A DNA stretch of 64,000 nucleotides from Escherichia phage vB_EcoA_4HA11. Location: sequence record MN445184. The stretch is one strand, 5' to 3'. Both the position numbers and the translations under genes were made by a program. Position 1 is the stretch's first letter. The number at the start of each line of letters is the position of its first letter. Positions 19,171-48,632 of this stretch are shown here, piece by piece. Under the pieces are notes generated by a model that made no database searches, was not told the origin of the DNA, and was given only the letters and a program-made list of their open reading frames with translations.

Positions 19171-21189
19171 TTAGAAAATGACTTTTACAGTACGGTTAAA
19201 CGCGCCGGACACTTTGACGAACACGTGGTTGCGTTGCGTCGTCGAGAATCCCAGACCGGACAGTTGGTTTTCATTCGGCTGGACTTTCATTTTACTACCC
19301 AACATTTCAAAAACCTTACGATGTTTATCCAGTTCCGGCTTCAGATATTCGTTGTAGAAACCACGAGTACCTTCAGGATTAGCACAGCCTTCAAGAATGA
19401 AGAACACGTGCTTGTTGCCTGTCTGCTCGCCATCCCAATGGTTTGGTGAATTCAGGACCAGCTGTACTTTCTGGAAGGTCGCAGTCTTGATACCCCAAAC
19501 TTCTTTAGACTTATCAACATTAGCCAGTTCGGACTTAATGCCAACAACTTGTTTGTCTTTAACAGTCAGGATGACTGCAGTGATACGCCCCTGATCTTTC
19601 AGGCCAGGATGGCTGAAACGATGCGTTGCGCCTTTGTATTCTACTTCGACTTCAAACCCTTCGTCGATTTTTTCACGTTGATTGTAGTTGTGGATTTCGA
19701 AACGGTATTCACCATCGCGCAGCTTGCTTTCATCTGTAAAGATGATATTTTCCACCGGGGCGCGGTTTGGATCAATACCATCCATACCGTTCATATCGAT
19801 ATCCAGATGGGCACCTGTCATAGAGCGGCGATCACGGAAGTAAACGTGCTCCATGTTGTTGAACATATGCAGATCGAGGTCGTCGTTGTTGTGCCACGCC
19901 AAGGAAACGCGCAGATACCCGTCAACTTTACCACCAGCAGCCTTTACACGTTCTTTAATGGAATCGGTCACTTCACCGTTGTAAGACCAGGAGAAACCGT
20001 TGTTCCACTTGAACAGGTTAGGCGCATCTGGGTTCGCCGGAGCAACCAGGGACATCAGGTTGCTAGTATGAGAATTCTCTACAAGCACTTCCATTGAATG
20101 CGCTTTTGGCAGAACATTGCTCAGGAAATCATCAACGCTGATCTCTTCAACTTTTTCCAGGGATTTGGTCGGAGTTTTCACTTCGGCGGCCAGCTGTGCA
20201 AACGGATCCATCGCTTTCTGAGCGGCCAGATCTGCGAACAGAACGTTGTTGATTGTCAGATCATCGTAAACCGCATAACGACGCGCCAGTGAGTCTTCCA
20301 AACCCAGAGCAATAACTTCTTTCTGAGCGTTTTCGATCATGGATTTTGAAACCAGCGCTGTCGGACGTTTGTAGTTCGCCGGAGCAACTTTGGATTCAAA
20401 CGATTTAACAGCCTTTTCCAGTTCCACGCCTTCGCTGATATCTGTCAGCAGAGTGCCGATAACTGTGTTGCGGATGCCGTGTGGAACATGATTGTTTGAA
20501 CGGTATCCAGTATGCCACGCCCACAGAGAACGGGCTGATTCGGGGACTTGTTCATATGCCTTTTTGGTTTCAACAAATCCCTTCACTGCTGCTTTGTGTT
20601 CTGCGCCGCGATACAGAGAATTCTGGTCAATCAGTTCCAGAACGATTTCAGCTGATTCCAGAGTAATTTCACGCAGACCGCGTTCAAACAATTCAATAGC
20701 CTGGCGAATTTCACCTTTTTTCGAAGCGATTGCGTCCGGACGCAGAACATAGCTACCAAGTAATTGGGTATGGAAATGATTGTAAGTACGGATTTTGCCA
20801 TCTTCACCAGATTCGTGATTGTGAGACAGGCCGACTTTGGCAGAATCGTTAAAATAAACATCGACGATTGCGTGTTGTTTGACATACGCGGAAAGAGCCG
20901 CAGCCACCACGTCATATTCATTACCCAGATCAATGTTGTCCCAGATAGAAATTACGTTCAGTTCTGAATCGATGGTGACAACACCGCCGATGTTACGGAT
21001 GAATTGTTTACAGCAGGTGCAATCGTGTTCAGTACGTTCGCGGTACAGCGGGTTAGTACCAGCAGGGAAAGATGCCAGATACAGATCCCAAAGAGCATCT
21101 TTATCGATATTGGTCATGAACAGACCAGTTGCGGACATCGCCAGCACGTTGTTATTAACTGCCGTTGCGAAGGGTTTGAATTCTGCCAT
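19171..21189 (-). CDS. large hypothetical protein (672 aa)
   Basis: Long uninterrupted ORF; no motif I can assign by eye. Confidence 0.55.
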   Translation of the reverse strand: MAEFKPFATAVNNNVLAMSATGLFMTNIDKDALWDLYLASFPAGTNPLYRERTEHDCTCCKQFIRNIGGVVTIDSELNVISIWDNIDLGNEYDVVAAALSAYVKQHAIVDVYFNDSAKVGLSHNHESGEDGKIRTYNHFHTQLLGSYVLRPDAIASKKGEIRQAIELFERGLREITLESAEIVLELIDQNSLYRGAEHKAAVKGFVETKKAYEQVPESARSLWAWHTGYRSNNHVPHGIRNTVIGTLLTDISEGVELEKAVKSFESKVAPANYKRPTALVSKSMIENAQKEVIALGLEDSLARRYAVYDDLTINNVLFADLAAQKAMDPFAQLAAEVKTPTKSLEKVEEISVDDFLSNVLPKAHSMEVLVENSHTSNLMSLVAPANPDAPNLFKWNNGFSWSYNGEVTDSIKERVKAAGGKVDGYLRVSLAWHNNDDLDLHMFNNMEHVYFRDRRSMTGAHLDIDMNGMDGIDPNRAPVENIIFTDESKLRDGEYRFEIHNYNQREKIDEGFEVEVEYKGATHRFSHPGLKDQGRITAVILTVKDKQVVGIKSELANVDKSKEVWGIKTATFQKVQLVLNSPNHWDGEQTGNKHVFFILEGCANPEGTRGFYNEYLKPELDKHRKVFEMLGSKMKVQPNENQLSGLGFSTTQRNHVFVKVSGAFNRTVKVIF

Positions 21190-21285
21190 GGTATAGTCTT
21201 CCTGTTTCAGTTCAAAGTGAGCGCCCTTATCGGGGCGCGTCGTTAAAGTGAGGTCAATATACGCTGAAAAGATTTATTGAAAAGT

Positions 21286-21693
21286 TTAAACGGGAATCAT
21301 GTTTACTCGAATACTTCTGAACCGTTTCCCGTCATAACTGGTGTAACCAACAACCGTAACTGATCTTGTTCCCTTTGGATAACCCTTTGGAGTACTCACA
21401 ACGCGCACAGGGCGCTTGCTTTCTTTATCGTATTTCGAAATCAATTTCAAAAGATGTTTATCGATCTGGCTTAAACTATCACCATACACGGTATATTGAT
21501 ATTGCTCGCAATTACCCAACAAAATGATAAATTTATAAATTTTGTCGACCAAAGATCGACATTTTGGATCATCATAATGATGCCGACAGACTTGACATTC
21601 ATATTTCCCAGTATTCATGTTGAACAATTTTGTCGCCCGACTTGAACACGCTGGGCATACTTTCCATGAACGATGATGTTTTACGGGTTTCAT
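21286..21693 (-). CDS. zinc-ribbon hypothetical protein
   Basis: CPACS...CQVCRHH cysteine pairs. Confidence 0.4.
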   Translation of the reverse strand: MKPVKHHRSWKVCPACSSRATKLFNMNTGKYECQVCRHHYDDPKCRSLVDKIYKFIILLGNCEQYQYTVYGDSLSQIDKHLLKLISKYDKESKRPVRVVSTPKGYPKGTRSVTVVGYTSYDGKRFRSIRVNMIPV

Positions 21694-22916
21694 TTTTTCA
21701 TCTTCTCTAACAGATTAATAGAACGAACGGGAGTCTTCTGTAATGGCTGATTAACTTCACCACCATTATACCCCACCTTTCCTCGAGGTTTCTCCCCGCG
21801 CATCACCGCCTCAACGCAGCGGGTATATTTCTGAAGTTCACAGAACATGTTCTCCAACTGCATAACATTCATGCAACGGTCTTCCGGTTCTTCTGCCGAC
21901 CAAAATTCATTACGTTTATACCCGTACTGAGCGAACAATTGATCTTGATGATCACGAACCCAGAATATGCATTCTTCATGCGTCATGCCGTCCTTGTCCA
22001 AAAATAACAGATCGATACCAGCACGGCAACCTGGACCAGCGATAGTGAAGTGGTTTTCACTGAATGGATATTCATCGATGTATGTAAAATCAACCCAAAT
22101 CTGGTATGCCAAGAATGGTCCAAGCCCCTCAATGTCGTCATACATCGCCTGGTAAACAGAGTCGGGACGGCTAAATTCCCTGAGGCGATCAAAGTAATGA
22201 GGGTGTTTGTTGACGAATGCCTTCAAAGAGCGGATGACTCGCATCGGCATGTATGGTTCCCAGCCTTCTATTTTGTATTCACCAGGATTATCTTCGGCCA
22301 GCTTCTTGGCAACCTTGTAATCCATTTCATCTATAACACCGCCAACCCGATGGACTTTTACCTTCATGCCGCCAAAGCGTTGCTCCTTGTGGTTGACAAC
22401 TAGTTCAGGGAAAGCCAGGCATTGTTTCAGACCGCCTGTATTAAACGCATTGGTGAAAACTTTGCCACCTTTAGATTCGAATTCCTGAAGAACATCTCGA
22501 CACCATTCAAGATTTATGTTTCCGAATTCTTCGATCGTCCATGGACCACCCAAAGCCTGTATAGGTTCCCACATGTTGTACATTCGGAACAATACACAGT
22601 TGAACATTTTGTCAGATAGCGTGAGATCCTGATCGAGGATGATATTATTGATCAAATTTCGAGACTGCCTATCGTGCTCTCTCCGCACGTTACAAAACTT
22701 GACTTGGCGTAATACCGGATTATCCGTCCATGGCGCTGGAAGGCATTGCACGTCCTTCTTGACATGTATCGCATAACGATCCCTCATCCATTCATATGCC
22801 AGCTGGCGGTGGAATGAACTTAACATAGGATGGGCTGATTTGATTTTGGTTTCACGGACACCGCAATATGGGATGTCATGTGGTTTATCTTTCATGGTAT
22901 CCTCTCTAGAATACAA
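21690..22916 (-). CDS. hypothetical protein (408 aa), possibly enzymatic
   Basis: Long ORF, 4-bp overlap with downstream gene. Confidence 0.5.
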   Translation of the reverse strand: MYSREDTMKDKPHDIPYCGVRETKIKSAHPMLSSFHRQLAYEWMRDRYAIHVKKDVQCLPAPWTDNPVLRQVKFCNVRREHDRQSRNLINNIILDQDLTLSDKMFNCVLFRMYNMWEPIQALGGPWTIEEFGNINLEWCRDVLQEFESKGGKVFTNAFNTGGLKQCLAFPELVVNHKEQRFGGMKVKVHRVGGVIDEMDYKVAKKLAEDNPGEYKIEGWEPYMPMRVIRSLKAFVNKHPHYFDRLREFSRPDSVYQAMYDDIEGLGPFLAYQIWVDFTYIDEYPFSENHFTIAGPGCRAGIDLLFLDKDGMTHEECIFWVRDHQDQLFAQYGYKRNEFWSAEEPEDRCMNVMQLENMFCELQKYTRCVEAVMRGEKPRGKVGYNGGEVNQPLQKTPVRSINLLEKMKK

Positions 22917-33489: not shown

Positions 33490-33509
33490 TTATTGAATAA
33501 ATTTTAAAT

Positions 33510-33764
33510 TTATTTGAAGCGATCAGGAAGAGTGTCGTGAACCTCAGCGCTCAGCACCAGGAACTTGCCGTCTTTAGTAGGGAAGCAGTAGTCTTTCTTG
33601 ATGTGGCGCATGTGTTCAGCCGTAGCCGCTACACAGTCGTTAGTCACGTCGGTCTTCTCACCTACCCACATACTGGTTTTGGTATTCAATGTACCTTGGA
33701 AGATAGTGCCCGTCAATGGGCTTGCTCCAATCTTTTTGATTCTCATAATTTCTCCCAAGTCCAT
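33510..33764 (-). CDS. hypothetical protein
   Basis: 84-aa ORF. Confidence 0.4.
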   Translation of the reverse strand: MDLGEIMRIKKIGASPLTGTIFQGTLNTKTSMWVGEKTDVTNDCVAATAEHMRHIKKDYCFPTKDGKFLVLSAEVHDTLPDRFK

Positions 33765-34117
33765 GTTTGCGCCTTGGCTTTTCCGACTACTGGAACGTTA
33801 CGGTGCATGTTTCTGAAGCTGCCTGTCTGATAAAAACAGATCCTGATGCGTTCATTTTCGGTATGCTGTGCCCAAACATGATGACCGTCTGGGTATGGGT
33901 CGTGACCAGCGCTACCTCCTTGTAGGGCTGTTTTGGTAACGACATAATGCCCTTGCATGTAACCGAAGAATCCCTCAGGGGTGATATAACCAGAGTCCGT
34001 TTGCCAATCTCCCTTGCAATTAGAATACAAGAAATGCTTTGGCACCTGAGTTTCAACGGTCATTTCTTCTGTGAGGACGAACACATCGCCGACTTGAAGC
34101 AGTGGTAAATTGTTCAT
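33743..34117 (-). CDS. hypothetical protein
   Basis: 124-aa ORF. Confidence 0.4.
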   Translation of the reverse strand: MNNLPLLQVGDVFVLTEEMTVETQVPKHFLYSNCKGDWQTDSGYITPEGFFGYMQGHYVVTKTALQGGSAGHDPYPDGHHVWAQHTENERIRICFYQTGSFRNMHRNVPVVGKAKAQTWTWEKL

Positions 34118-34125
34118 AGTGGACC

Positions 34126-34566
34126 TCAGTTAATACGGAACAAATGTGGATAGCCACCAGGATGACCCTGGCCAGTAACGAACACGTCGAATTTTGAACC
34201 CTTGATCAGGCCAGGCAGATTGCCGGAGTCCAGCAATTCACGGATCTGCTCCATCGCCAACATCCAGGTTTTGGCAGGTTCGGCTTCTGCTTCTCCTCGA
34301 TTGAGTACGAGTTCACCTTCGGAATAGAACTTCCCGCTGTCCTTCATATAGTACAACGTGATATGAATGTACTGAGGGGACGGAACTAAACGCCAACCGT
34401 CGTCGATCAGATCTTGGCGATCATTGTCCAGTGACTGATAATCAATATCACCAGATGGCAAACCATAGCTGCGCATGTAGCGGAACTTCTCAACACGATC
34501 TTTCACGTCGGAGATGAAGAACTCTTTCGTGGCAGGGCTGATGAATATGTATTTTCCTTTTGACAT
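34126..34566 (-). CDS. hypothetical protein
   Basis: 146-aa ORF. Confidence 0.4.
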   Translation of the reverse strand: MSKGKYIFISPATKEFFISDVKDRVEKFRYMRSYGLPSGDIDYQSLDNDRQDLIDDGWRLVPSPQYIHITLYYMKDSGKFYSEGELVLNRGEAEAEPAKTWMLAMEQIRELLDSGNLPGLIKGSKFDVFVTGQGHPGGYPHLFRIN

Positions 34567-34626
34567 GATGTAGTTCTCTCAGTGATAGACCATATCATAA
34601 TAGCACTGAGGACTGATAAAGAAAAA

Positions 34627-35274
34627 CTACATGAAATCTTTTACCCATTCAGGGTCTTCCATAGGAACCCAATTTTCGTATTTGAACATTTTGTACATGT
34701 TATAGAACACTCGAATATTATTCCCGTCGTTCATCCGGTTACAAAATCGTTCATGCCCCCAACCTTCATTCTTCCATAATTGATAGAATTGGTCAGCCAT
34801 AGCCCAAACGTGTTGGCATTTAGTTGCCCTTGGACGCTTCCATATCCTGATTTCATTCTGCCATTTGATCTGGGCTTGCCGTGATGTTTCCGAAAATCCA
34901 ATTGGTTTGTTCTTTCCTCTTGTTACGTTAGACAAATGCGCCTTTGCTTCTTCGCTGAGTGGCCCAGTCCTTCCAAAATAAACGAGGGAACCATCTTTCT
35001 TAACATGGAAACGATTTAAACAAAGAGGATTGGTGTGAACGGATTCGATCAATTGCGCTTCAACTTGGAGGGCTTCCTCTCCATCCCGACATAGCATTAT
35101 CACTTCATGGGTGAAGTAATCTGGTCCATGTTGTGATATAAGGGATTGGACAACTTTCGAGGACGTAAAATATTTTACCCAAAGTTCTTTGGGGTGACAG
35201 TTCTTTGCGTGACGACATCCATAATAGATGTGTCCATCTTTTGATTCTATTTTGTAAACGTATGGTTGGTTCAT
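34627..35274 (-). mobile_element. GIY-YIG-type homing-endonuclease-like gene (Seg-like)
   Basis: N-terminus PYVYKIESKDGHIYYG matches the GIY...YIG spacing; freestanding gene between terminator and downstream genes. Confidence 0.55.
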
Positions 35275-35311
35275 AATTCCCCCTTTCAGGACATTATAAC
35301 CCCATACTTCT

Positions 35312-35340
35312 GAAATAAAAACCCCGCCGAAGCGGGGTTT
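35312..35340 (-). terminator. rho-independent terminator after the major capsid gene
   Basis: CCCCGC-UUCG-GCGGGG (35322..35337) followed by UUUUUAUUU on minus strand. Confidence 0.65.
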
Positions 35341-35355
35341 GTAAGTCGTTGTTAA

Positions 35356-36678
35356 TTAAAACAAACTTTTGATTAAGCCCTTCCTGAAATACGGGTTGCT
35401 GTCTTGAGCAATACCGTCAGCAGTCACGTAAACCTGCGGGTCTTGGTTAGCCGGAATCTGTACGAACGGGTTAGCACAGATGCCGTAACGGGTTTTGAAC
35501 GCCATACGCGGAGCGAAGGTGGTTTCACCCTGGGTGCGGTACATTTCCAGCGGCACATACGGCGCGAAGAAGATACCGGCATCCAGCGCAGTTGCGCCTT
35601 TGTATGCCAGAGTGATATATTCTGCTACAGCATACGGGTCAACATAGACGCGCATACCGTTGGACAGAACACCAGCGAAGGTCTGGCCAGTCGGGTCAAC
35701 AGCCAGTTTAGTGTTTTCCTGCAGAACCGGAGCATAGTCCAGCATGCCAGACATCGCCAGAGCGGATGCCACGTTCGGAGAACACAGAACACGGTTGCCT
35801 TTACCACGACGGGTGTCAACACCGATACCGTTCGCTTCAACTTCCAGCATGAAAGTCAGGAACTTCCATTTTTCCAGCGCCCAACGACCAGAGATGTCCT
35901 GCGCGATATCAACAACACCGTTGGTGCCGAATTTTTTGAAGCGAACAGCACTGAAGTTCATGGTGCGGATGAATTCACGGTTCATTTCCGCCTGAATTTC
36001 AGTTACCATCACGTCAGACAGGATATTATCCACGTCTTCGCCGTGAATTGCCATCATGTCCTGACGCAGTTCATGGCTGTAATCAGCATACAGGCCGCGA
36101 GACTTGGCAGTAACGGTCGCTTTCTGAACAGTAATACCAACACGCGCCCAAGGGTTGGTGGTAGTACCCAGCAGTTCAGCGTCACTTGACGGCATACCTT
36201 TACCGATAGTGGTCACGACAGAGCCGGAACCTTCGATTTCAGCCTGACTAAAGCCTGACGGGTCGCCAGCCTGTACAGTACCATCACCGGAATAGCCGGA
36301 ATCGGCTTCCTGCATGAACAGTTCTTTACGAGACTGTGCGGTGTTGGAACTGTCACCAACACCCTGGCGAGCGCGCAGTGCAAAGATCTGACCGTCAGGA
36401 CCAGACAGCGGCTGAACACCGAAGAAGTCCATCGCGATGTTGATCGGCGCCAGACGTTTTGCCATGTCGATCAGAACTGGCTGCCATTTACCGACAGTGC
36501 TGTTCACAGAACCAGGTGCGTCAGATTCGCCCAGGTTTTTTGCGTTCCATTCAGCCTGGTTCTGCATCAGACGGATGGTTACGTTTTCGGCAGACAGAGG
36601 TTGAATAGCTTCAGATTCTTTTTGGAGAACTGGCAGCCACTGTTTGCGCATTTCTTCGGTTACAAGTTTCTTAGTCAT
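35356..36678 (-). CDS. gp23: major capsid protein (gp23-like)
   Basis: 440 aa, last gene of the 20-...-21-22-23 order; HK97-fold-sized; highly expressed-gene context with terminator. Confidence 0.75.
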   Translation of the reverse strand: MTKKLVTEEMRKQWLPVLQKESEAIQPLSAENVTIRLMQNQAEWNAKNLGESDAPGSVNSTVGKWQPVLIDMAKRLAPINIAMDFFGVQPLSGPDGQIFALRARQGVGDSSNTAQSRKELFMQEADSGYSGDGTVQAGDPSGFSQAEIEGSGSVVTTIGKGMPSSDAELLGTTTNPWARVGITVQKATVTAKSRGLYADYSHELRQDMMAIHGEDVDNILSDVMVTEIQAEMNREFIRTMNFSAVRFKKFGTNGVVDIAQDISGRWALEKWKFLTFMLEVEANGIGVDTRRGKGNRVLCSPNVASALAMSGMLDYAPVLQENTKLAVDPTGQTFAGVLSNGMRVYVDPYAVAEYITLAYKGATALDAGIFFAPYVPLEMYRTQGETTFAPRMAFKTRYGICANPFVQIPANQDPQVYVTADGIAQDSNPYFRKGLIKSLF

Positions 36679-36718
36679 GATGCTCGTTCCTTACATTGAT
36701 ATTCAGTTAAGTTGAAAT

Positions 36719-36726
36719 TACTTAGT
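36719..36726 (-). promoter_or_regulatory. late-promoter-like motif variant ACTAAGTA upstream of capsid gene
   Basis: One mismatch from the recurring ACTAAATA motif. Confidence 0.25.
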
Positions 36727-36769
36727 AGTTCAAAATCAAGCCCCCTTTCGAGGGCTGTGGCTGCTAAAA

Positions 36770-37609
36770 TTAGCCGTTCAGCAAAGCACTGATCTGGCGA
36801 CGGACGGCTTCGTTGACTTCTTTGCCAACTTCGTCTTTGTCATCATCGTCATCGTCATCATCGTCGGCTTCACCTTCTTTCTTCGGTTTTTTACCTTCTT
36901 TGATGTCTTTTTCAGACTTGTCGCCATCCGGCTTGCCTTTTTCATTGTCTTTGCCGACTTTATCAGAGAAGTCATCTTTGCCTTCTACCAGGTTACGGAA
37001 GGTGCGCACACGGGATTCAAATTCAGACTCGGTCTGGAATTCAATACCTTCCAGCAGGTTGACAACAGTGTCTTTCTTGGTGTCAACCATACCTTCACAA
37101 ATACGATCAATGACATCATTGCGCTGGCGTTTGGTTTCACTTTCTTTGAGCTGAGCCAATTCAGTATTGGCAATGCTGGCGCGTTTCTCTGCTTCAGCCA
37201 GGCGGTTGGTGAGAGCTGCAATCTGACCGTCTGGGTCAGTGGCGAAACTAACACCTGCTTCTTTCAGAACATTAGAGAAACCAGTGAGGAAGCGTTCAGC
37301 AGCTTCGGTTTTGATCTGAGCGTCAATGGCCGGAGCATTTTTGTTAGCCCATTCTTCAACAACCGCGTTGAGGAACGAATCAACTTTTTCCGCCAACTGA
37401 AGAGTGAAATTTTCTTTAAGGTCTGCGACTTCTTTCTGGTGGGCTTCTACCAGAGTCAGGCGCTCAACGTTACCAGCCGCTTCAGTTTCTTGAATAGCTT
37501 GCAGACGGGCGGCTTCAACTTTAGATTCCAGCAGACCAGATACTTTGTCCAAGAAATCGGTGCTGAGGCCATTAACGCCTTCAAACAGTTTTTGCAATTC
37601 AGGTTTCAT
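36770..37609 (-). CDS. gp22: prohead scaffolding/core protein (gp22-like)
   Basis: Coiled-coil-rich acidic protein with poly-Asp tract, between protease and capsid genes. Confidence 0.65.
   Translation of the reverse strand: MKPELQKLFEGVNGLSTDFLDKVSGLLESKVEAARLQAIQETEAAGNVERLTLVEAHQKEVADLKENFTLQLAEKVDSFLNAVVEEWANKNAPAIDAQIKTEAAERFLTGFSNVLKEAGVSFATDPDGQIAALTNRLAEAEKRASIANTELAQLKESETKRQRNDVIDRICEGMVDTKKDTVVNLLEGIEFQTESEFESRVRTFRNLVEGKDDFSDKVGKDNEKGKPDGDKSEKDIKEGKKPKKEGEADDDDDDDDDKDEVGKEVNEAVRRQISALLNG
36839..36865 (-). repeat. nine consecutive Asp codons (poly-Asp tract in scaffold protein)
   Basis: GTC/ATC triplet run on plus strand. Confidence 0.8.
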
Positions 37610-41183: not shown

Positions 41184-41642
41184 CTAATTAGTCGTCAATC
41201 TTTTAATCTTCATGGAAGAAAAATCAAATCCGTGGTCAACATTGCTTAAAACGGGTTCGATTTCACACAATTCCCAACGGGGATCTATGAGAGAAACAAG
41301 ACCAATGTGTTCACCTGTGGATGTCAATTTTGCTGCAGTTTTACCCAGCATATGACTTCCATCATTACCGCCTTTATTCATGTTGTAACCCATCTCATAA
41401 GAATTATATTGAGAGATGAGTTGCTTCTCTAATTCCCATTTATGGACTTCATCGGTCTGAGCAATTACAACGAAAGTAAATCCAGATGTTCCATACTTAC
41501 GCATGGCATCATACAATTCACTTTGGACTCCATGATGAAAAGCATTCGCAAAATGCTGATCATATCTTCGTTGTGGGTCATTGGTCACACCGATGTAGAC
41601 CTTTCCATTAGTTATCGTTTCAATTTTGTATGCGTATATCAT
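41184..41642 (-). mobile_element. GIY-YIG homing endonuclease (I-TevI-like catalytic domain)
   Basis: IYAYKIETITNGKVYIGVTNDPQRRYDQH...E...GYNMNKGG parallels I-TevI GIYQIKN..NNKVYVGSA...RWKRH...GYNI; inserted between sheath and tube genes. Confidence 0.75.
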
Positions 41643-43646: not shown

Positions 43647-45857
43647 TCAATTCTTAAACCACTCATCCATGGTCATCCCTGACATTTCGTTGAAAACTTG
43701 AATACCCCCGAAACCAGGCAAATGCTCAGTTTCGGATGGGGTGTCTCCAACGACTAAACCGCCAAATGGGAATACCTGCTGAGATTCAGTTGAAGACATT
43801 CGGTTTCTCATGTCCTGAGAAATACTTGTAGATGTCAAATCACTGAACCATTCTTGTTTTACCGCCCATGAATATAAGACCAACGGCATGACACAGTCAT
43901 CGTGACAACCGTCATCGGCTTCATACCGAGCGCCTTTGAACACAAATGTACTGAGTTCATCTATCGTGTCCTGGTCTTCTATCACCAACATTTCTTTCTC
44001 AATGAGCGCTTTCAGGTTAGCACAACCGATAGATCGGACTTTTCTGTTGGTATTGATACCAGGTTCCGGTTTACGCCCACCAATCCGTTTCCCCGTCCCT
44101 TTGTTATCTGTTGATGTGAATATGATTTCTGGATATTCTATCTCTTGATAAAGAATTGTAATAACCTGACCGCCGACGTCGTTGTTTGTTTCAACAAGGA
44201 CAGGACATTCCCCGTATTCGGTGCACATATCAGCTATCGTGTATGCATACATCATAGGAGGTATCGTATTATTCCTGTACTTGGCTGCTATGACATGCGG
44301 ATATTCAGTTATATCCAGAATTGTTAAGACGGAATAATCTCCTTCCACCCCCTTCCCAGTGTCCGCAATCCCAAAGTAGAGACGTTGTGGGTCGTATTCC
44401 TTATAAATCTTGGTGAATTCATTAGGTTCCCGATACAACTTGGACGTCATTTTATCTAAGCATTTGGCCGGAATCAATGAACCCACGGAACCACGGAACT
44501 TAATGCCAAATTCTTGATCGAAACGAGCATCCCCCAGACGGGCACGTTGTTTGGTTTCCCAATCTGGATCTTTGGTATATGCCGGAACCTTATACCATGG
44601 GACTTCAGTTAGGTGGAAGTCGTTGTATTGTGGATGGCGCGGATCTGCTTTGGTGACAATATCATAGAACAACCCTCGCTGGCCTTTCGGAGTACTTGTC
44701 AAAATACAGCGTGATGTATCGGCAGATGCAATGGCTGGGAAAGTTGATTCCCAAAATTCAAAGTCGTTTTCGATAAACGCGACTTCGTCAACGTACAAGA
44801 GCGATACAGAACGACCACGGATGGAGTCCGAAGACGTGGCATAAGCGTATATCTTAGAACCATTTTCAAACTCTATCAGGGTAGAACCAAACTTCTCACA
44901 ACCCTGCTGAAGGAAGAATGGAAGGTCTTGGTATGCCTTTCTGATACGGTCAAGAATTTCTATCGCTTGTTTCTCTTTGTTTGCCAGTACTGCGATTTCC
45001 TTATCAGAATGGAACATCGCATACCAAAGAAGAAACGCCGCCACCACGGTCGTGTTATGACTGAGAAAGCCATTCGTGTAATAACGTTGATCACTAGATT
45101 TGACCTGCAGATCGTACATATGGTGATATTCACCAGTCTGCCAAATCTCACGGATTTCTTCTGGACCTTCTGTCGTCATGATGTATGACCCAGCATTCAG
45201 GTCTTTGGCAAATGTCTCCTTCATGTCCGGAGTGAAGAACATATGTTCATCGGCCACGTTAATTCGCCTTCCGGTAACTGTGACAATAACGAATTCCGCA
45301 TATTTCTTCGTCTTATGCGCTGCGATAACCGGAACCCAGCCACTATCGGATTGTACAAAGTAACGTTTGCCGAAGCGGCTGTCCACGAACTTGTCATGGT
45401 TGCCAATGGTATTCAGCGGCACAGCGTGGTTGACGTCCTCGAATCGGCTGTGAAGCTCCCCTATGGTCAGGAGCAACTCCTCTTGGCTGAGAGTATCGTA
45501 AACTGTGACAAGCGTGTCGCCTTTTACACATTTTCCAGACTGACGAGCCTGGATGACCGCATTGAATCGATAGTCCTGAAAGTCATGGAACAACTGTTTC
45601 TGATAATCATGCATATCGAAAAGGATAAAGCCTTTATCGATCGTGGTTATCTTGTAATAGTTGGCGGCGAAGTAGTGTGCATCCATAGAACATTCAACGA
45701 ATTCGTCTTCTTGTTCATCTGTCAGCATTAACTCGACTCGAGGAGCACGCACAGAAGGTTTGCGCATAAACGTTTGGTCCATACGCAATTTCACATCGTC
45801 TATTTTGAACCCCGTTTTAATTGGGGCATATTCTATATCACGCTTCTGATACGCCAT
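43647..45857 (-). CDS. gp17: terminase large subunit (gp17-like) interrupted by an intein
   Basis: Extein flanks ARQSGK / TTVVAAFLLWYAMF match T4 gp17 P-loop SRQLGKTTVVAIFLAHF; nuclease-domain region downstream. Confidence 0.9.
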   Translation of the reverse strand: MAYQKRDIEYAPIKTGFKIDDVKLRMDQTFMRKPSVRAPRVELMLTDEQEDEFVECSMDAHYFAANYYKITTIDKGFILFDMHDYQKQLFHDFQDYRFNAVIQARQSGKCVKGDTLVTVYDTLSQEELLLTIGELHSRFEDVNHAVPLNTIGNHDKFVDSRFGKRYFVQSDSGWVPVIAAHKTKKYAEFVIVTVTGRRINVADEHMFFTPDMKETFAKDLNAGSYIMTTEGPEEIREIWQTGEYHHMYDLQVKSSDQRYYTNGFLSHNTTVVAAFLLWYAMFHSDKEIAVLANKEKQAIEILDRIRKAYQDLPFFLQQGCEKFGSTLIEFENGSKIYAYATSSDSIRGRSVSLLYVDEVAFIENDFEFWESTFPAIASADTSRCILTSTPKGQRGLFYDIVTKADPRHPQYNDFHLTEVPWYKVPAYTKDPDWETKQRARLGDARFDQEFGIKFRGSVGSLIPAKCLDKMTSKLYREPNEFTKIYKEYDPQRLYFGIADTGKGVEGDYSVLTILDITEYPHVIAAKYRNNTIPPMMYAYTIADMCTEYGECPVLVETNNDVGGQVITILYQEIEYPEIIFTSTDNKGTGKRIGGRKPEPGINTNRKVRSIGCANLKALIEKEMLVIEDQDTIDELSTFVFKGARYEADDGCHDDCVMPLVLYSWAVKQEWFSDLTSTSISQDMRNRMSSTESQQVFPFGGLVVGDTPSETEHLPGFGGIQVFNEMSGMTMDEWFKN
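45054..45530 (-). mobile_element. mini-intein (159 aa) within terminase large subunit
   Basis: Insert begins CVKGDTLVTV, ends GFLSHN, followed by Thr; splits the Walker A motif between GK and T. Confidence 0.75.
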
Positions 45858-47921: not shown

Positions 47922-48632
47922 ATGATCGTCCTGACAGAAGGAATTGCTTCTAAAAGAATCAAATCATATGCTTCTTCTAGAGGTGGAATATTTCACGGAT
48001 TTGTCGGTGGTAAATTTGTCACCAACCAAACTAAGTGTATTTTGTCTTGCGAATTTGGTCATGAATGGAACTCAGCAACTTATGCGAATTTGATAAATAA
48101 AGGAAGTTGGTGTCCTTCGTGTCGTGGAAACAAGAAGATCTCAAATGAAGAAGCTAAAATCAGGATATCGGAGTACGCCGTAAGCAACGGTGGTAAATTC
48201 ATAAATTTCATTGGCGGGAAGTACAAAGACAACGTGACAATTTGTGTCATGGAATGTTCTGAAACACACAGGTGGGAATCCAGGTACGGTAATTTAGTCA
48301 ACAGCCGAAGTTGGTGTCCGTATTGCGCAGAATCGGGTTACAATTATTCTAAGGAAGGTTTCTTATATATTCTAGTCAACGACGAAGGTTGTATGAAAGT
48401 GGGAATAACCAACTCACCTAAGAAACGCATAAATTGTTTAAGAAGCAGCACCCCGTTTGACTTCAACGTTCTAGAAATATTCAATTCAACCGACGGATTA
48501 TTTGTTTCCAGGTTGGAAAGAATTGCCCATAGAATGTGTAAGAGCGCGGGATATAAGGATTTTGACGGTGCTACCGAATGGTTTGTATATGACGGGTCAG
48601 TCGTAGATTTTATCAGAAATATTTTGAAGTAG
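47922..48632 (+). mobile_element. T5orf172/GIY-YIG-superfamily endonuclease-like gene with two N-terminal zinc-finger repeats
   Basis: Two repeats of C..C..H.W...WCP.C; C-terminal GFLYILVNDEGCMKVGIT...ATEWF; plus strand inside minus-strand structural block; AAGGTG SD. Confidence 0.55.

What the first reader, a model, noticed from the sequence alone, without database searches (positions are those of the whole stretch)
34627..35274. Second GIY-YIG-like endonuclease gene just downstream of the major capsid terminator
The N-terminus PYVYKIESKDGHIYYGCRHAKNCH has the GIY/YIG spacing with downstream Arg/His. The 215-aa gene lies between the capsid terminator and a run of small unknown genes. Together with the other endonuclease-like genes and the intein it points to a heavy selfish-element load in the structural module.
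Basis: partly seen in the sequence, partly recalled or inferred. Interest (0 to 1): 0.5.

Follow-up and report, generated by a model that had tools for sequence, protein, structure and literature searches.

The report
Mobile GIY-YIG endonuclease gene beside capsid gene
The 215-codon gene just after the major capsid gene of this Salmonella Kuttervirus phage is a real, intact, selfish "homing" nuclease gene of the well-known Seg/GIY-YIG kind, which has hopped between related phages; it is an ordinary member of a known class, though it probably targets the very end of the capsid gene.

Summary
Window 34627-35274 (minus strand) is an intact 215-aa gene directly after the major-capsid (MCP) terminator of a Kuttervirus phage (99.8% identical to Salmonella phage S117).

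It is a free-standing Seg-like GIY-YIG homing endonuclease:
- PHROG 314 "homing endonuclease", E 6e-32.
- Pfam SegE_GIY-YIG just under threshold.
- Y7, Y17, G19, E72 and N87 are conserved.

Mobility is supported:
- The gene is 0/648 nt different from phage SS9, whose flanks differ.
- It is 97.5% identical to a Klebsiella phage copy whose MCP is 89% identical.
- It is only 79% identical to the copy in phage Hercules, whose MCP is 97% identical.
- dN/dS is 0.03-0.23.
- This lineage follows the MCP terminator in five Ackermannviridae genera, is absent from many relatives, and is frameshifted in PhaxI.

New detail: the last 45 nt of MCP are a synonymous-variation hotspot, and the stop-to-terminator spacer type is linked to gene presence. 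This suggests the target lies there, but that is untested.

Identical or near-identical genes are already annotated as homing endonucleases. The finding is ordinary, with low-to-moderate interest.

The parts
34627..35274 (-). Coding sequence of the 215-aa free-standing Seg-like GIY-YIG homing endonuclease (stop codon TAG at 34627-34629)
   Evidence: ORF list and sequence. PHROG 314, E 5.7e-32. Identical protein is annotated 'homing endonuclease' in phage SeKF_64. dN/dS 0.03-0.23.
34999..35274 (-). N-terminal GIY-YIG catalytic domain (about residues 1-92). Conserved residues are Y5-V6-Y7, Y17-Y18-G19, R21, Y35-F36-x-S38-S39, E72 and N87.
34870..34962 (-). Single NUMOD3-like linker repeat (residues 105-135). 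Relatives of 280 aa carry three repeats, and this one looks like a hybrid of the first and third.
   Evidence: Pfam NUMOD3 E 0.032, below cutoff. The alignment shows a ~66-aa in-frame gap relative to the long forms. 54 of 68 relatives match NUMOD3.
34630..34854 (-). C-terminal all-helical domain (residues 141-215), presumed DNA-binding; no Pfam family matches it
   Evidence: Helices 148-214 in the model. PHROGs 655, 26163 and 25551 ('homing endonuclease') match only this part. It is 100% identical to the C-terminus of the long-form relative P0003 and to the PhaxI fragment.
35260..35307 (-). Predicted leader hairpin. GTATGG (35307-35302) pairs with CCATAC (the Pro4-Tyr5 codons, 35265-35260), enclosing the Shine-Dalgarno sequence (35279-35283), the ATG and a TATAAT-like hexamer.
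   Evidence: Fold z-score -4.7 for a 106-nt stretch that also includes the terminator. The same outer stem is seen in 5 of 6 divergent leader alleles, with one G-C to A-U compensatory pair. Function is inferred by analogy with T4 I-TevI, segB and mobE (PMC2988022).
35319..35340 (-). Intrinsic terminator of the major capsid gene. The endonuclease cassette starts in its T-run.
   Evidence: Terminator scan. Conserved in both gene-carrying and gene-lacking relatives.
35341..35400 (-). Last 14 codons plus stop codon of the capsid gene (35356-35400) and the stop-to-terminator spacer (35341-35355). This is a synonymous-recoding hotspot, its spacer type is linked to endonuclease-gene presence, and it is the candidate homing site or co-conversion tract.
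   Evidence: Nucleotide diversity 0.225 against 0.028 in the gene body. 21/45 against 91/1275 segregating sites, Fisher p 3.6e-12, with the protein invariant except one P/V. Spacer signature association, p 3.3e-6.
34578..34610 (-). 3' untranslated inverted repeat CTCAGTG-(19 nt)-CACTGAG that travels with the endonuclease gene and abuts the ribosome-binding site of whichever gene lies downstream
   Evidence: Conserved after short and long forms whether the next gene is the orf142, orf185-like or orf184-like gene. Homology to the Klebsiella phage Bullseye copy ends at 34578.
34578..35316 (-). Whole mobile cassette as delimited by comparison with relatives that lack the gene and with cross-genus copies (about 740 bp)
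   Evidence: Alignments with S8, ECML-4, Trex and Bullseye.

Best explanation
This is an active, free-standing ('intronless') homing endonuclease gene of the Seg-like GIY-YIG type. It sits in a recurrent insertion slot right after the major-capsid terminator of Ackermannviridae phages.

The protein is modular. It has an N-terminal GIY-YIG nuclease domain, one NUMOD3-like linker repeat and a C-terminal helical DNA-binding domain.

Inferred mechanism: when a phage carrying the gene and a related phage lacking it co-infect one cell, the enzyme cuts the allele that lacks it near the slot. Recombinational repair then copies the ~740-bp cassette and a variable stretch of neighbouring DNA from the carrier genome. 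Carrier genomes escape cutting because the site is interrupted or recoded.

The most likely site is the capsid-gene stop-codon region and the spacer before the terminator. Translation is probably held back by a leader hairpin that hides the ribosome-binding site, as in T4 endonuclease genes.

Shown here: gene integrity, family and fold, purifying selection, patchy distribution, and discordance between the gene and its flanks. Inferred: cleavage activity, the target location, and the role of the hairpin.
For: Identity:
- PHROG 314, E 5.7e-32.
- SegE_GIY-YIG, E 6e-5.
- 45 of 68 relatives match SegE_GIY-YIG and 54 of 68 match NUMOD3.
- Foldseek top hit is the I-TevI catalytic domain, probability 1.0.
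- BFVD fold matches are Seg-like endonucleases.
- Y7, Y17 and G19 are invariant; E72 is present in 67/68, N87 in 66/68 and R21 in 60/68.

Functional constraint: dN/dS is 0.063 against Bullseye, 0.23 against allotria and 0.033 against Hercules.

Mobility, window compared with each relative:
- SS9: endonuclease gene 0/648 differences, capsid gene body 17/1278, orf142 39/441.
- Klebsiella phage Bullseye: endonuclease gene 97.5% identical, capsid gene 88.9%, downstream DNA unrelated.
- Hercules: endonuclease gene 78.8% identical, capsid gene 96.7%.

Patchy distribution:
- This lineage directly follows the capsid terminator in Kuttervirus, Taipeivirus, Limestonevirus, Agtrevirus and Nezavisimistyvirus.
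- Of 23 dereplicated IMG/VR loci, 9 carry it, 3 carry an unrelated Hef-like endonuclease, and about 11 carry none.
- The PhaxI copy is frameshifted.

Target clue:
- The capsid-gene tail has 8-fold higher diversity than the gene body, and the variation is almost all synonymous.
- The spacer type tracks gene presence: 'ACAG' within 12 nt after the stop occurs in 10/12 flanks without the gene and 0/17 with it.

The mechanism and the leader-hairpin precedent come from T4 SegB/F/G and I-TevI (PMC2988022, PMC2330249).
Against: - No cleavage data exist for this lineage.
- Pfam scores fall below the curated cutoffs: 23.7 against 25 for PF19835, and 11.3 against 22.6 for PF01541.
- The residue aligned to the catalytic Arg27 of I-TevI is Leu31. 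Whether Arg21 substitutes for it could not be checked without model coordinates.
- Model confidence is only moderate (pLDDT 72).
- This 215-aa form lacks two of the three NUMOD3 repeats found in long forms, which could impair or alter targeting.
- The capsid-tail haplotype is not strictly tied to gene presence. SS9 (gene present) and S8 (gene absent) share one haplotype, and Trex (absent) has a carrier-type spacer.
- The association test ignores shared ancestry.
- Hairpin covariation rests on one compensatory pair, and its 3' arm is constrained by coding.
Confidence: 0.85

Rival explanations
1. The gene is a decaying or already inactive endonuclease remnant. It persists only because it is linked to the essential capsid gene and supplies the leader of the downstream gene.
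For: - The short form has lost two NUMOD3 repeats.
- The canonical Arg position is Leu.
- Pfam scores are below cutoff.
- Frameshifted or split copies exist in PhaxI and SeF6a.
- The cassette's 3' hairpin abuts the downstream ribosome-binding site.
Against: - dN/dS is 0.03-0.23 across alleles that are saturated at synonymous sites.
- All family-invariant residues are intact.
- Identical copies sit in diverged genomic backgrounds, and a 97.5% identical copy sits in another genus. This implies recent transfer of this very short form.
Confidence: 0.07
2. The nuclease is active but domesticated. Its main role would be phage-versus-phage competition (marker exclusion of the capsid region), self-regulation, or defence against satellites, rather than its own spread. 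This overlaps with the best explanation.
For: - T4 Seg enzymes cause marker exclusion, and I-TevI doubles as an autorepressor (PMC2988022).
- Endonuclease genes cluster at essential genes and at recombination boundaries (PMC10448857).
- The slot next to the capsid gene is occupied in five genera, by two unrelated endonuclease families.
Against: - About half of the dereplicated relatives lack any endonuclease gene in the slot.
- Pseudogenes occur.
- Both facts fit a parasitic gain-and-loss cycle better than a retained benefit.
- Nothing in the sequence identifies an operator or a satellite target.
Confidence: 0.15
3. The patchy distribution and mosaic flanks reflect ordinary homologous or illegitimate recombination in a hypervariable accessory-gene region. 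No endonuclease-catalysed homing would be involved.
For: - The slot also varies in its small non-nuclease genes; the orf185, 184, 183 and 181 sets differ among CBA120, S8 and ECML-4.
- orf141 (33743-34117) is also present or absent among relatives.
- Mosaic breakpoints are scattered.
Against: - The occupant directly next to the terminator is repeatedly a nuclease gene, from two different families, across five genera.
- Diversity peaks sharply in the 45 nt next to the cassette and not at the other flank.
- The cassette boundaries are the same in Kuttervirus and Taipeivirus.
Confidence: 0.08

Closest known systems
Phage T4 Seg endonucleases (SegA-G), especially segD, which lies next to gene 23 (the major capsid gene), and SegB/SegF/SegG, which mediate intronless homing with co-conversion
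   Same: - Free-standing gene between conserved genes.
- N-terminal GIY-YIG domain of the SegE Pfam type, followed by a linker and a C-terminal DNA-binding part.
- Sporadic distribution among relatives.
- Flanking-marker mosaicism next to an essential gene.
- A hairpin that hides the ribosome-binding site, as described for segB (PMC2988022, PMC2330249).
   Different: - A different phage family (Ackermannviridae), whose DNA carries hypermodified thymidine.
- Same orientation as the capsid gene, whereas T4 segD is antisense.
- The C-terminal domain matches no Pfam family.
- No biochemical data exist.
- No direct sequence comparison with T4 Seg proteins was made here.
I-TevI (T4 td intron endonuclease; PDB 1LN0, 1MK0, 1I3J)
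   Same: - Tyr, Tyr, Gly and Glu align with the I-TevI catalytic residues.
- Modular architecture of nuclease, linker and DNA-binding domain.
   Different: - Not intron-encoded; Rfam finds no group I intron here.
- About 16-20% sequence identity.
- I-TevI Arg27 aligns to Leu31.
- NUMOD3 linker instead of a zinc finger.
- Different C-terminal domain.
Annotated homing endonucleases of Ackermannviridae: the F-Lim series in Dickeya phage LIMEstone1 (PMC3296691), 'GIY-YIG homing endonuclease' in phages Maynard, Marshall, STP07 and LPST94, and 'NUMOD3 motif family protein' in RC-2014
   Same: - Same lineage and same slot. Phage SeKF_64 encodes the identical protein; STP07 is 95% identical.
- Maynard and RC-2014 carry the 281-282-aa long form directly after the capsid terminator.
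   Different: - LIMEstone1 itself has a different enzyme in the slot, the 491-aa Hef-like F-LimVII.
- The window's form is the short, one-repeat variant.
- S117, the closest genome, labels the gene 'hypothetical protein'.
Endonuclease genes at recombination boundaries and near essential genes in ICP1 and other phages (Barth, Dunham & Seed 2023, PMC10448857)
   Same: - The endonuclease gene abuts an essential structural gene and marks a sharp change in nucleotide identity.
- In-frame loss of repeated DNA-binding modules.
- Domain shuffling between alleles.
   Different: That study centres on T5orf172 and HNH families in ICP1. Ackermannviridae are not mentioned in it.

Membership tests
GIY-YIG nuclease superfamily | 'GIY' and 'YIG' motifs about 10-11 residues apart on two adjacent beta strands | tested here: met
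   Y5-V6-Y7 and Y17-Y18-G19. Y7, Y17 and G19 are invariant in 68 relatives. They lie on model strands 2-11 and 16-24. hhalign pairs them with I-TevI Y6, Y17 and G19.
GIY-YIG nuclease superfamily | Conserved Arg following the YIG motif (I-TevI R27) | tested here: inconclusive
   In the hhalign alignment the R27 column is Leu31. The family instead conserves Arg21, in 60/68 sequences.
GIY-YIG nuclease superfamily | Metal-binding Glu on the third helix and a downstream Asn (I-TevI E75, N90) | tested here: met
   E72 (67/68) aligns to E75 and lies in helix 65-79. N87 (66/68) falls 3 residues from N90 in an alignment stretch that contains a gap, so the Asn match is approximate.
GIY-YIG nuclease superfamily | The alpha/beta fold of the catalytic domain | tested here: met
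   [not shown]
Pfam SegE_GIY-YIG (PF19835) / GIY-YIG (PF01541) | Score at or above the curated gathering threshold | tested here: not met
   PF19835 scores 23.7 bits against a cutoff of 25. PF01541 scores 11.3 against 22.6. Membership is supported only transitively, because 45 of 68 relatives match PF19835 at E<=0.001.
Seg-like modular free-standing endonuclease (GIY-YIG + NUMOD3 + DNA-binding domain) | NUMOD3 repeat(s) between the nuclease and the DNA-binding domain | tested here: inconclusive
   There is one NUMOD3-like stretch at residues 105-135, with E 0.032 and 14.6 bits against a cutoff of 20.4. Long-form relatives have three clear repeats, and 54/68 relatives match NUMOD3.
Homing endonuclease gene (functional definition) | Sporadic presence or absence at one locus among close relatives | tested here: met
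   The same slot is occupied or empty in different phages of several genera. Of 23 dereplicated loci, 9 carry the gene. Pseudogene copies also occur.
Homing endonuclease gene (functional definition) | Gene history discordant with that of its flanks (horizontal spread) | tested here: met
   Endonuclease gene against capsid gene: 0/648 against 17/1278 differences (SS9), 97.5% against 88.9% identity (Bullseye), and 78.8% against 96.7% (Hercules).
Homing endonuclease gene (functional definition) | Site-specific cleavage of the allele that lacks the gene, and repair-driven copying | not testable with these tools
   Only indirect signs are available: the synonymous hotspot in the capsid tail and the linked spacer type.
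Intron-encoded GIY-YIG endonuclease (I-TevI type) | Located inside a self-splicing group I intron | tested here: not met
   The gene lies between a terminator and the next gene. Rfam finds no intron in 33500-37000, and the only hits are sub-threshold and driven by the terminator.

The most novel reading that the evidence does not exclude
The last ~14 codons of the major capsid gene plus the stop-to-terminator spacer may be the homing site of a Seg-like endonuclease lineage. That lineage, together with an unrelated Hef-like family, has tracked the capsid gene through at least five Ackermannviridae genera.

On this reading, the extreme and almost purely synonymous recoding of the capsid tail records an arms race between cleavage and escape in an essential gene. 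The codon switches seen include Ser AGT to TCG/TCT, Arg AGG to CGT/CGC, and swaps among Leu codons. The short one-repeat form would be a retargeted variant that cuts closer to its binding site.
Probability: 0.4. Interest if true: 0.45.

Novelty: already known. Interest (0 to 1): 0.25.

Why it matters
For annotation, the S117-type 'hypothetical protein' should be named a Seg-like GIY-YIG homing endonuclease.

For biology, it adds a clean natural example of intronless homing next to an essential gene, in a phage family widely used for biocontrol and therapy. Such elements shuffle capsid-region markers between Salmonella, E. coli and Klebsiella phages. They can distort phylogenies built on the major capsid gene, because the last 45 nt behave very differently from the rest of the gene.

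The predicted target, the capsid stop-codon region of CBA120-like phages, is directly testable. If confirmed, it would provide a new site-specific nuclease that acts on hypermodified DNA.

Tried and rejected
- Sequence searches of the PDB with the protein and with a 14-sequence profile found nothing meaningful. Only fold comparison linked the protein to I-TevI.
- hhalign with the shallow alignment aligned just 19 columns. The 68-sequence alignment was needed.
- NCBIfam has no model for the protein.
- tblastn of the protein against the window found no paralogue, so the two GIY-YIG genes in the window are not recent duplicates.
- The four small ORFs that occupy the slot in CBA120, S8 and ECML-4 are not endonuclease fragments. 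They gave no similarity to the GIY-YIG or Hef-like proteins and matched only PHROGs of unknown function.
- I looked for a T4-type late promoter. TATAAATA is not enriched in the window (3 found, 2.1 expected). The leader motif TATGGGGTTATAAT is unique in the window. The sigma-70 scan found no promoter upstream of the gene. I therefore make no promoter claim.
- A simple rule that the capsid-tail haplotype predicts gene presence was rejected, because SS9 (present) and S8 (absent) share a tail. The spacer signature is the better correlate, but it has two exceptions.
- Alignment-based folding of the leader recovered only a 6-pair outer stem with one covarying pair.
- The predicted structure could not be inspected residue by residue, so catalytic geometry was not verified.

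Full report
**Where we are.** The window is a Kuttervirus (family Ackermannviridae) genome segment. Bases 33500-37000 are 99.8% identical to Salmonella phage S117. Another 288 phage records share the region, from Salmonella, Escherichia, Klebsiella, Dickeya, Serratia, Erwinia and other hosts. In S117 the gene in question is orf143, labelled 'hypothetical protein'.

**The observation.**
- It follows the major capsid gene (35356-36678, minus strand) and that gene's intrinsic terminator (35340-35319).
- A GGGGG ribosome-binding site precedes it.
- Four small genes of unknown function follow it.
- The coordinates, the context and the 'second GIY-YIG' wording are all correct. A 152-aa ORF at 41184-41642 is a clear Pfam GIY-YIG match at 45 bits. 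It is unrelated in sequence to this gene.

**What the protein is.**
- PHROG 314 'homing endonuclease' matches the full length at E 5.7e-32.
- Pfam SegE_GIY-YIG matches residues 5-75 at E 6e-5, scoring 23.7 bits and just missing the cutoff of 25. NUMOD3 matches residues 105-135 weakly.
- A profile search of 1.84 billion representative proteins returned 42,023 relatives at E<=0.001. Of 68 that I aligned, 45 match SegE_GIY-YIG and 54 match NUMOD3.
- In that alignment Y7, Y17, G19 and S39 are invariant. Y35, F36, S38, G50, E72 and N87 are present in 90% or more, and R21 in 60 of 68.
- An AlphaFold model (pLDDT 72) shows strand-strand-helix-helix-strand-helix for residues 1-80, a disordered linker at 90-106 and a helical C-terminal half.
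- Predicted viral structures that match are Seg-like endonucleases.
- I recalled the I-TevI sequence from memory and confirmed it against PDB entries 1I3J, 1MK0 and 1LN0. The family profile aligns to it at E 1.2e-5, pairing Y7 with Y6, Y17 with Y17, G19 with G19, Y35 with H31 and E72 with E75.

One deviation stands out. I-TevI Arg27 aligns to Leu31, and the family conserves Arg21 instead. I could not inspect model coordinates, so the equivalence of that Arg is unresolved.

The C-terminal domain (residues 141-215) has no Pfam family. It does match the C-terminal parts of three other 'homing endonuclease' PHROGs.

Compared with the 280-aa relatives, this protein lacks about 66 residues. One hybrid NUMOD3 repeat remains where the long forms have three. 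Barth et al. describe the same kind of in-frame repeat loss for other phage endonuclease genes (PMC10448857).

**Is the gene alive?** Pairwise Nei-Gojobori dN/dS is 0.063 against the Klebsiella phage Bullseye copy, 0.23 against allotria and 0.033 against Hercules, where synonymous sites are saturated. The protein is therefore under purifying selection. Decay does occur elsewhere:
- PhaxI carries a long-form copy with two 1-nt insertions.
- SeF6a has a split copy.

**Is the gene mobile?** Three comparisons show that its history differs from that of its neighbours (sliding windows).

| Compared with the window | Endonuclease gene | Capsid gene body | Other |
|---|---|---|---|
| SS9 | 0 of 648 nt differ | 17 of 1278 differ | orf142: 39 of 441 differ |
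| Klebsiella phage Bullseye_ER20 | 97.5% identical | 88.9% identical | downstream DNA unrelated |
| Hercules | 78.8% identical | 96.7% identical | |

The homologous block shared with Bullseye runs from 34578 into the terminator T-run at about 35316. This matches the boundaries seen against the relatives that lack the gene (S8, ECML-4 and Trex). The mobile unit is therefore about 740 bp and consists of leader, gene and a 49-nt tail. The tail contains the inverted repeat CTCAGTG...CACTGAG. That tail is conserved in front of whichever gene comes next, whether the orf142, orf185-like or orf184-like gene.

**The slot.**
- In CBA120 the space between the capsid terminator and the orf142 homologue holds four small genes: orf185, 184, 183 and 181.
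- S8 keeps the first pair and ECML-4 the second pair.
- The endonuclease gene always sits immediately after the terminator. What follows it varies: all four small genes (KpS110), three (SM5), two (allotria), or none, as in the window, S117, SS9, Hercules and Maynard.
- The same lineage occupies this position in Taipeivirus, Limestonevirus (RC-2014), Agtrevirus (SW16-7) and Nezavisimistyvirus (Bue1).
- LIMEstone1 has a different occupant, the 491-aa Hef-like F-LimVII (PMC3296691, Table 1).
- Among 23 dereplicated Ackermannviridae loci from IMG/VR, 9 carry this GIY-YIG lineage (3 short, 6 long), 3 carry the Hef-like gene and about 11 carry neither.
- T4 segD also lies beside gene 23 (PMC2988022).

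**Clue to the target.**
- Among 12 Kuttervirus capsid genes, nucleotide diversity is 0.028 over codons 1-425 but 0.225 over the last 45 nt.
- Segregating sites number 21/45 in the tail against 91/1275 in the body (Fisher p 3.6e-12).
- The encoded peptide ...YFRKGLIKSLF is unchanged apart from one P/V site further upstream.
- The changes include whole-codon switches: Ser AGT to TCG/TCT, and Arg AGG to CGT/CGC.
- The other flank, the orf142 5' end, shows no such peak.
- The 15-30 nt between the stop codon and the terminator fall into two classes. 'ACAG' within 12 nt of the stop occurs in 10 of 12 distinct flanks without the gene and in 0 of 17 with it. 'CTTA[C/T/A]' within 30 nt occurs in 2 of 12 and 17 of 17 respectively (p 3.3e-6, not corrected for ancestry). 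The exceptions are S8 and Trex.
- Trex also keeps the carrier-type T-run (TTTTTATTT), which hints that it lost the gene secondarily.
- Bullseye differs from its close relative Trex, which lacks the gene, mainly in the last ~100 nt of the capsid gene. There it carries window-like codons, as expected for a co-conversion tract.

I therefore propose that the enzyme recognises or cuts the allele ...ATC AAA TCT CTG TTC TAA [G/T]CGACAGGTTTTGATAAC found in genomes without the gene. I also propose that carrier genomes hold recoded, resistant versions. This is inference. SS9 and S8 share a tail haplotype, so the tail alone does not decide sensitivity.

**Expression.** After the terminator, the leader can fold so that GTATGG (35307-35302) pairs with the Pro4-Tyr5 codons CCATAC (35265-35260), burying the ribosome-binding site and the ATG. 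The outer stem recurs in five of six divergent leader alleles. It persists even in Bue1, where three extra codons shift the partner. There is one G-C to A-U compensatory change. T4 I-TevI, I-TevII, I-TevIII, segB and Aeh1 mobE use such hairpins together with an internal late promoter (PMC2988022). I found no support for a T4-type late promoter here, so only the hairpin is proposed, and weakly.

**Comparison with what is known, and novelty.** Multiple homing endonuclease genes in Ackermannviridae were described in 2012 for LIMEstone1 (PMC3296691) and reviewed since (PMC8472413, PMC6267328). The identical protein is annotated 'homing endonuclease' in SeKF_64, and 95%-identical copies are annotated 'GIY-YIG homing endonuclease' in STP07 and LPST94. 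The finding as stated is therefore already known at the annotation level. It is biochemically uncharacterised.

In the searched literature I found no description of the following:
- the conserved capsid-adjacent slot across five genera;
- the synonymous hotspot in the capsid tail;
- the spacer type linked to gene presence.

These are modest extensions of the T4 intronless-homing picture.

**Verdict.** This is an ordinary member of a known class. Interest is 0.25, rising to about 0.45 if the capsid-tail target and arms-race reading is confirmed.

Noticed in passing
window 45057-45530 (-), inside the large terminase gene 43647-45857: The 736-aa large terminase has a 158-aa mini-intein inserted in its Walker A motif: ARQSGK|C110...GFLSHN267|TTVVAAF. 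Cys1, the terminal His-Asn and the +1 Thr are all present. The Pfam Intein_splicing hit has E 8.6e-7 but scores 29.3 bits against a cutoff of 35.8. The gene has the same length in SeKF_64.
   Followed up: partly
window 41184-41642 (-): A 152-aa GIY-YIG endonuclease gene lies between the tail sheath and tail tube genes. It scores 45 bits on Pfam PF01541, and TIGR01453 'group I intron endonuclease' gives E 7e-13 but below cutoff. It consists of the nuclease domain only and shows no similarity to the 215-aa gene.
   Followed up: partly
window 47922-48632 (+): A 236-aa gene on the opposite strand to its neighbours combines a CapR zinc-finger DNA-binding domain with a MUG113/T5orf172 nuclease domain. 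This is the T5orf172 homing-endonuclease architecture described for ICP1 (PMC10448857).
   Followed up: partly
window 21281-21960, compared with L013 (SeKF_64) 20935-22207: SeKF_64 has a 309-aa annotated 'homing endonuclease' here. The window instead has a 135-aa ORF (21286-21693) with only weak zinc-ribbon matches. This is a second polymorphic endonuclease slot, beside the 5-hmdU DNA kinase gene (21690-22916).
   Followed up: no
window 33743-34117 (-): The 124-aa gene (S117 orf141, PHROG 7702) is present in the window, S117, Hercules and Maynard. It is absent from SS9, SeKF_64, PhaxI and allotria. This is another clean presence/absence polymorphism two genes downstream of the endonuclease gene.
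   Followed up: no
L016 (phage SM5) 2231-2254, compared with L006 (CBA120) orf185 3' end: In SM5 the last codons and stop of the endonuclease gene (...QNT*) are identical in DNA to the 3' end of CBA120 orf185. The following intergenic region is also the same. The endonuclease gene therefore replaced orf185 by a junction inside the coding sequence.
   Followed up: no
L015 (RC-2014) about 2880-2940, L019 (SW16-7), L006 (CBA120) orf184 leader: The leader of the orf184-like gene also forms a hairpin that buries its ribosome-binding site (CCTGTTGTA...TACAACAGGAG). In RC-2014 the hairpin contains GTATGGTTATAGAG...AACCATAC, which closely resembles the arms of the endonuclease-gene leader. This may be a shared regulatory design or promoter motif.
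   Followed up: no
window 34616-34626 (-), compared with the sequence after the terminator in S8 and CBA120: The 11-mer TTTTTCTTTAT directly follows the endonuclease stop codon in carrier genomes. The same 11-mer directly follows the capsid terminator stem in genomes without the gene. This may be a trace of the original insertion junction, or just a T-rich coincidence.
   Followed up: no
L005 (Klebsiella phage Trex_ER12) 2044-2400: Trex lacks the endonuclease gene. In its place, right after the capsid terminator, it has a 118-aa ORF (MTKSEINAILKDLGYGS...) that is also found in IMG/VR locus L040. I did not characterise it.
   Followed up: no
alignment A2/A3, proteins P0001 and P0003 against the window protein: The endonuclease alleles are mosaics. 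The long-form P0003 is only about 50-60% identical to the window protein in the N-terminal domain but 100% identical over the last ~60 residues. The S115-type allele shares a short 'RAKP-LQHVW' patch with P0003. This indicates domain shuffling between alleles.
   Followed up: partly
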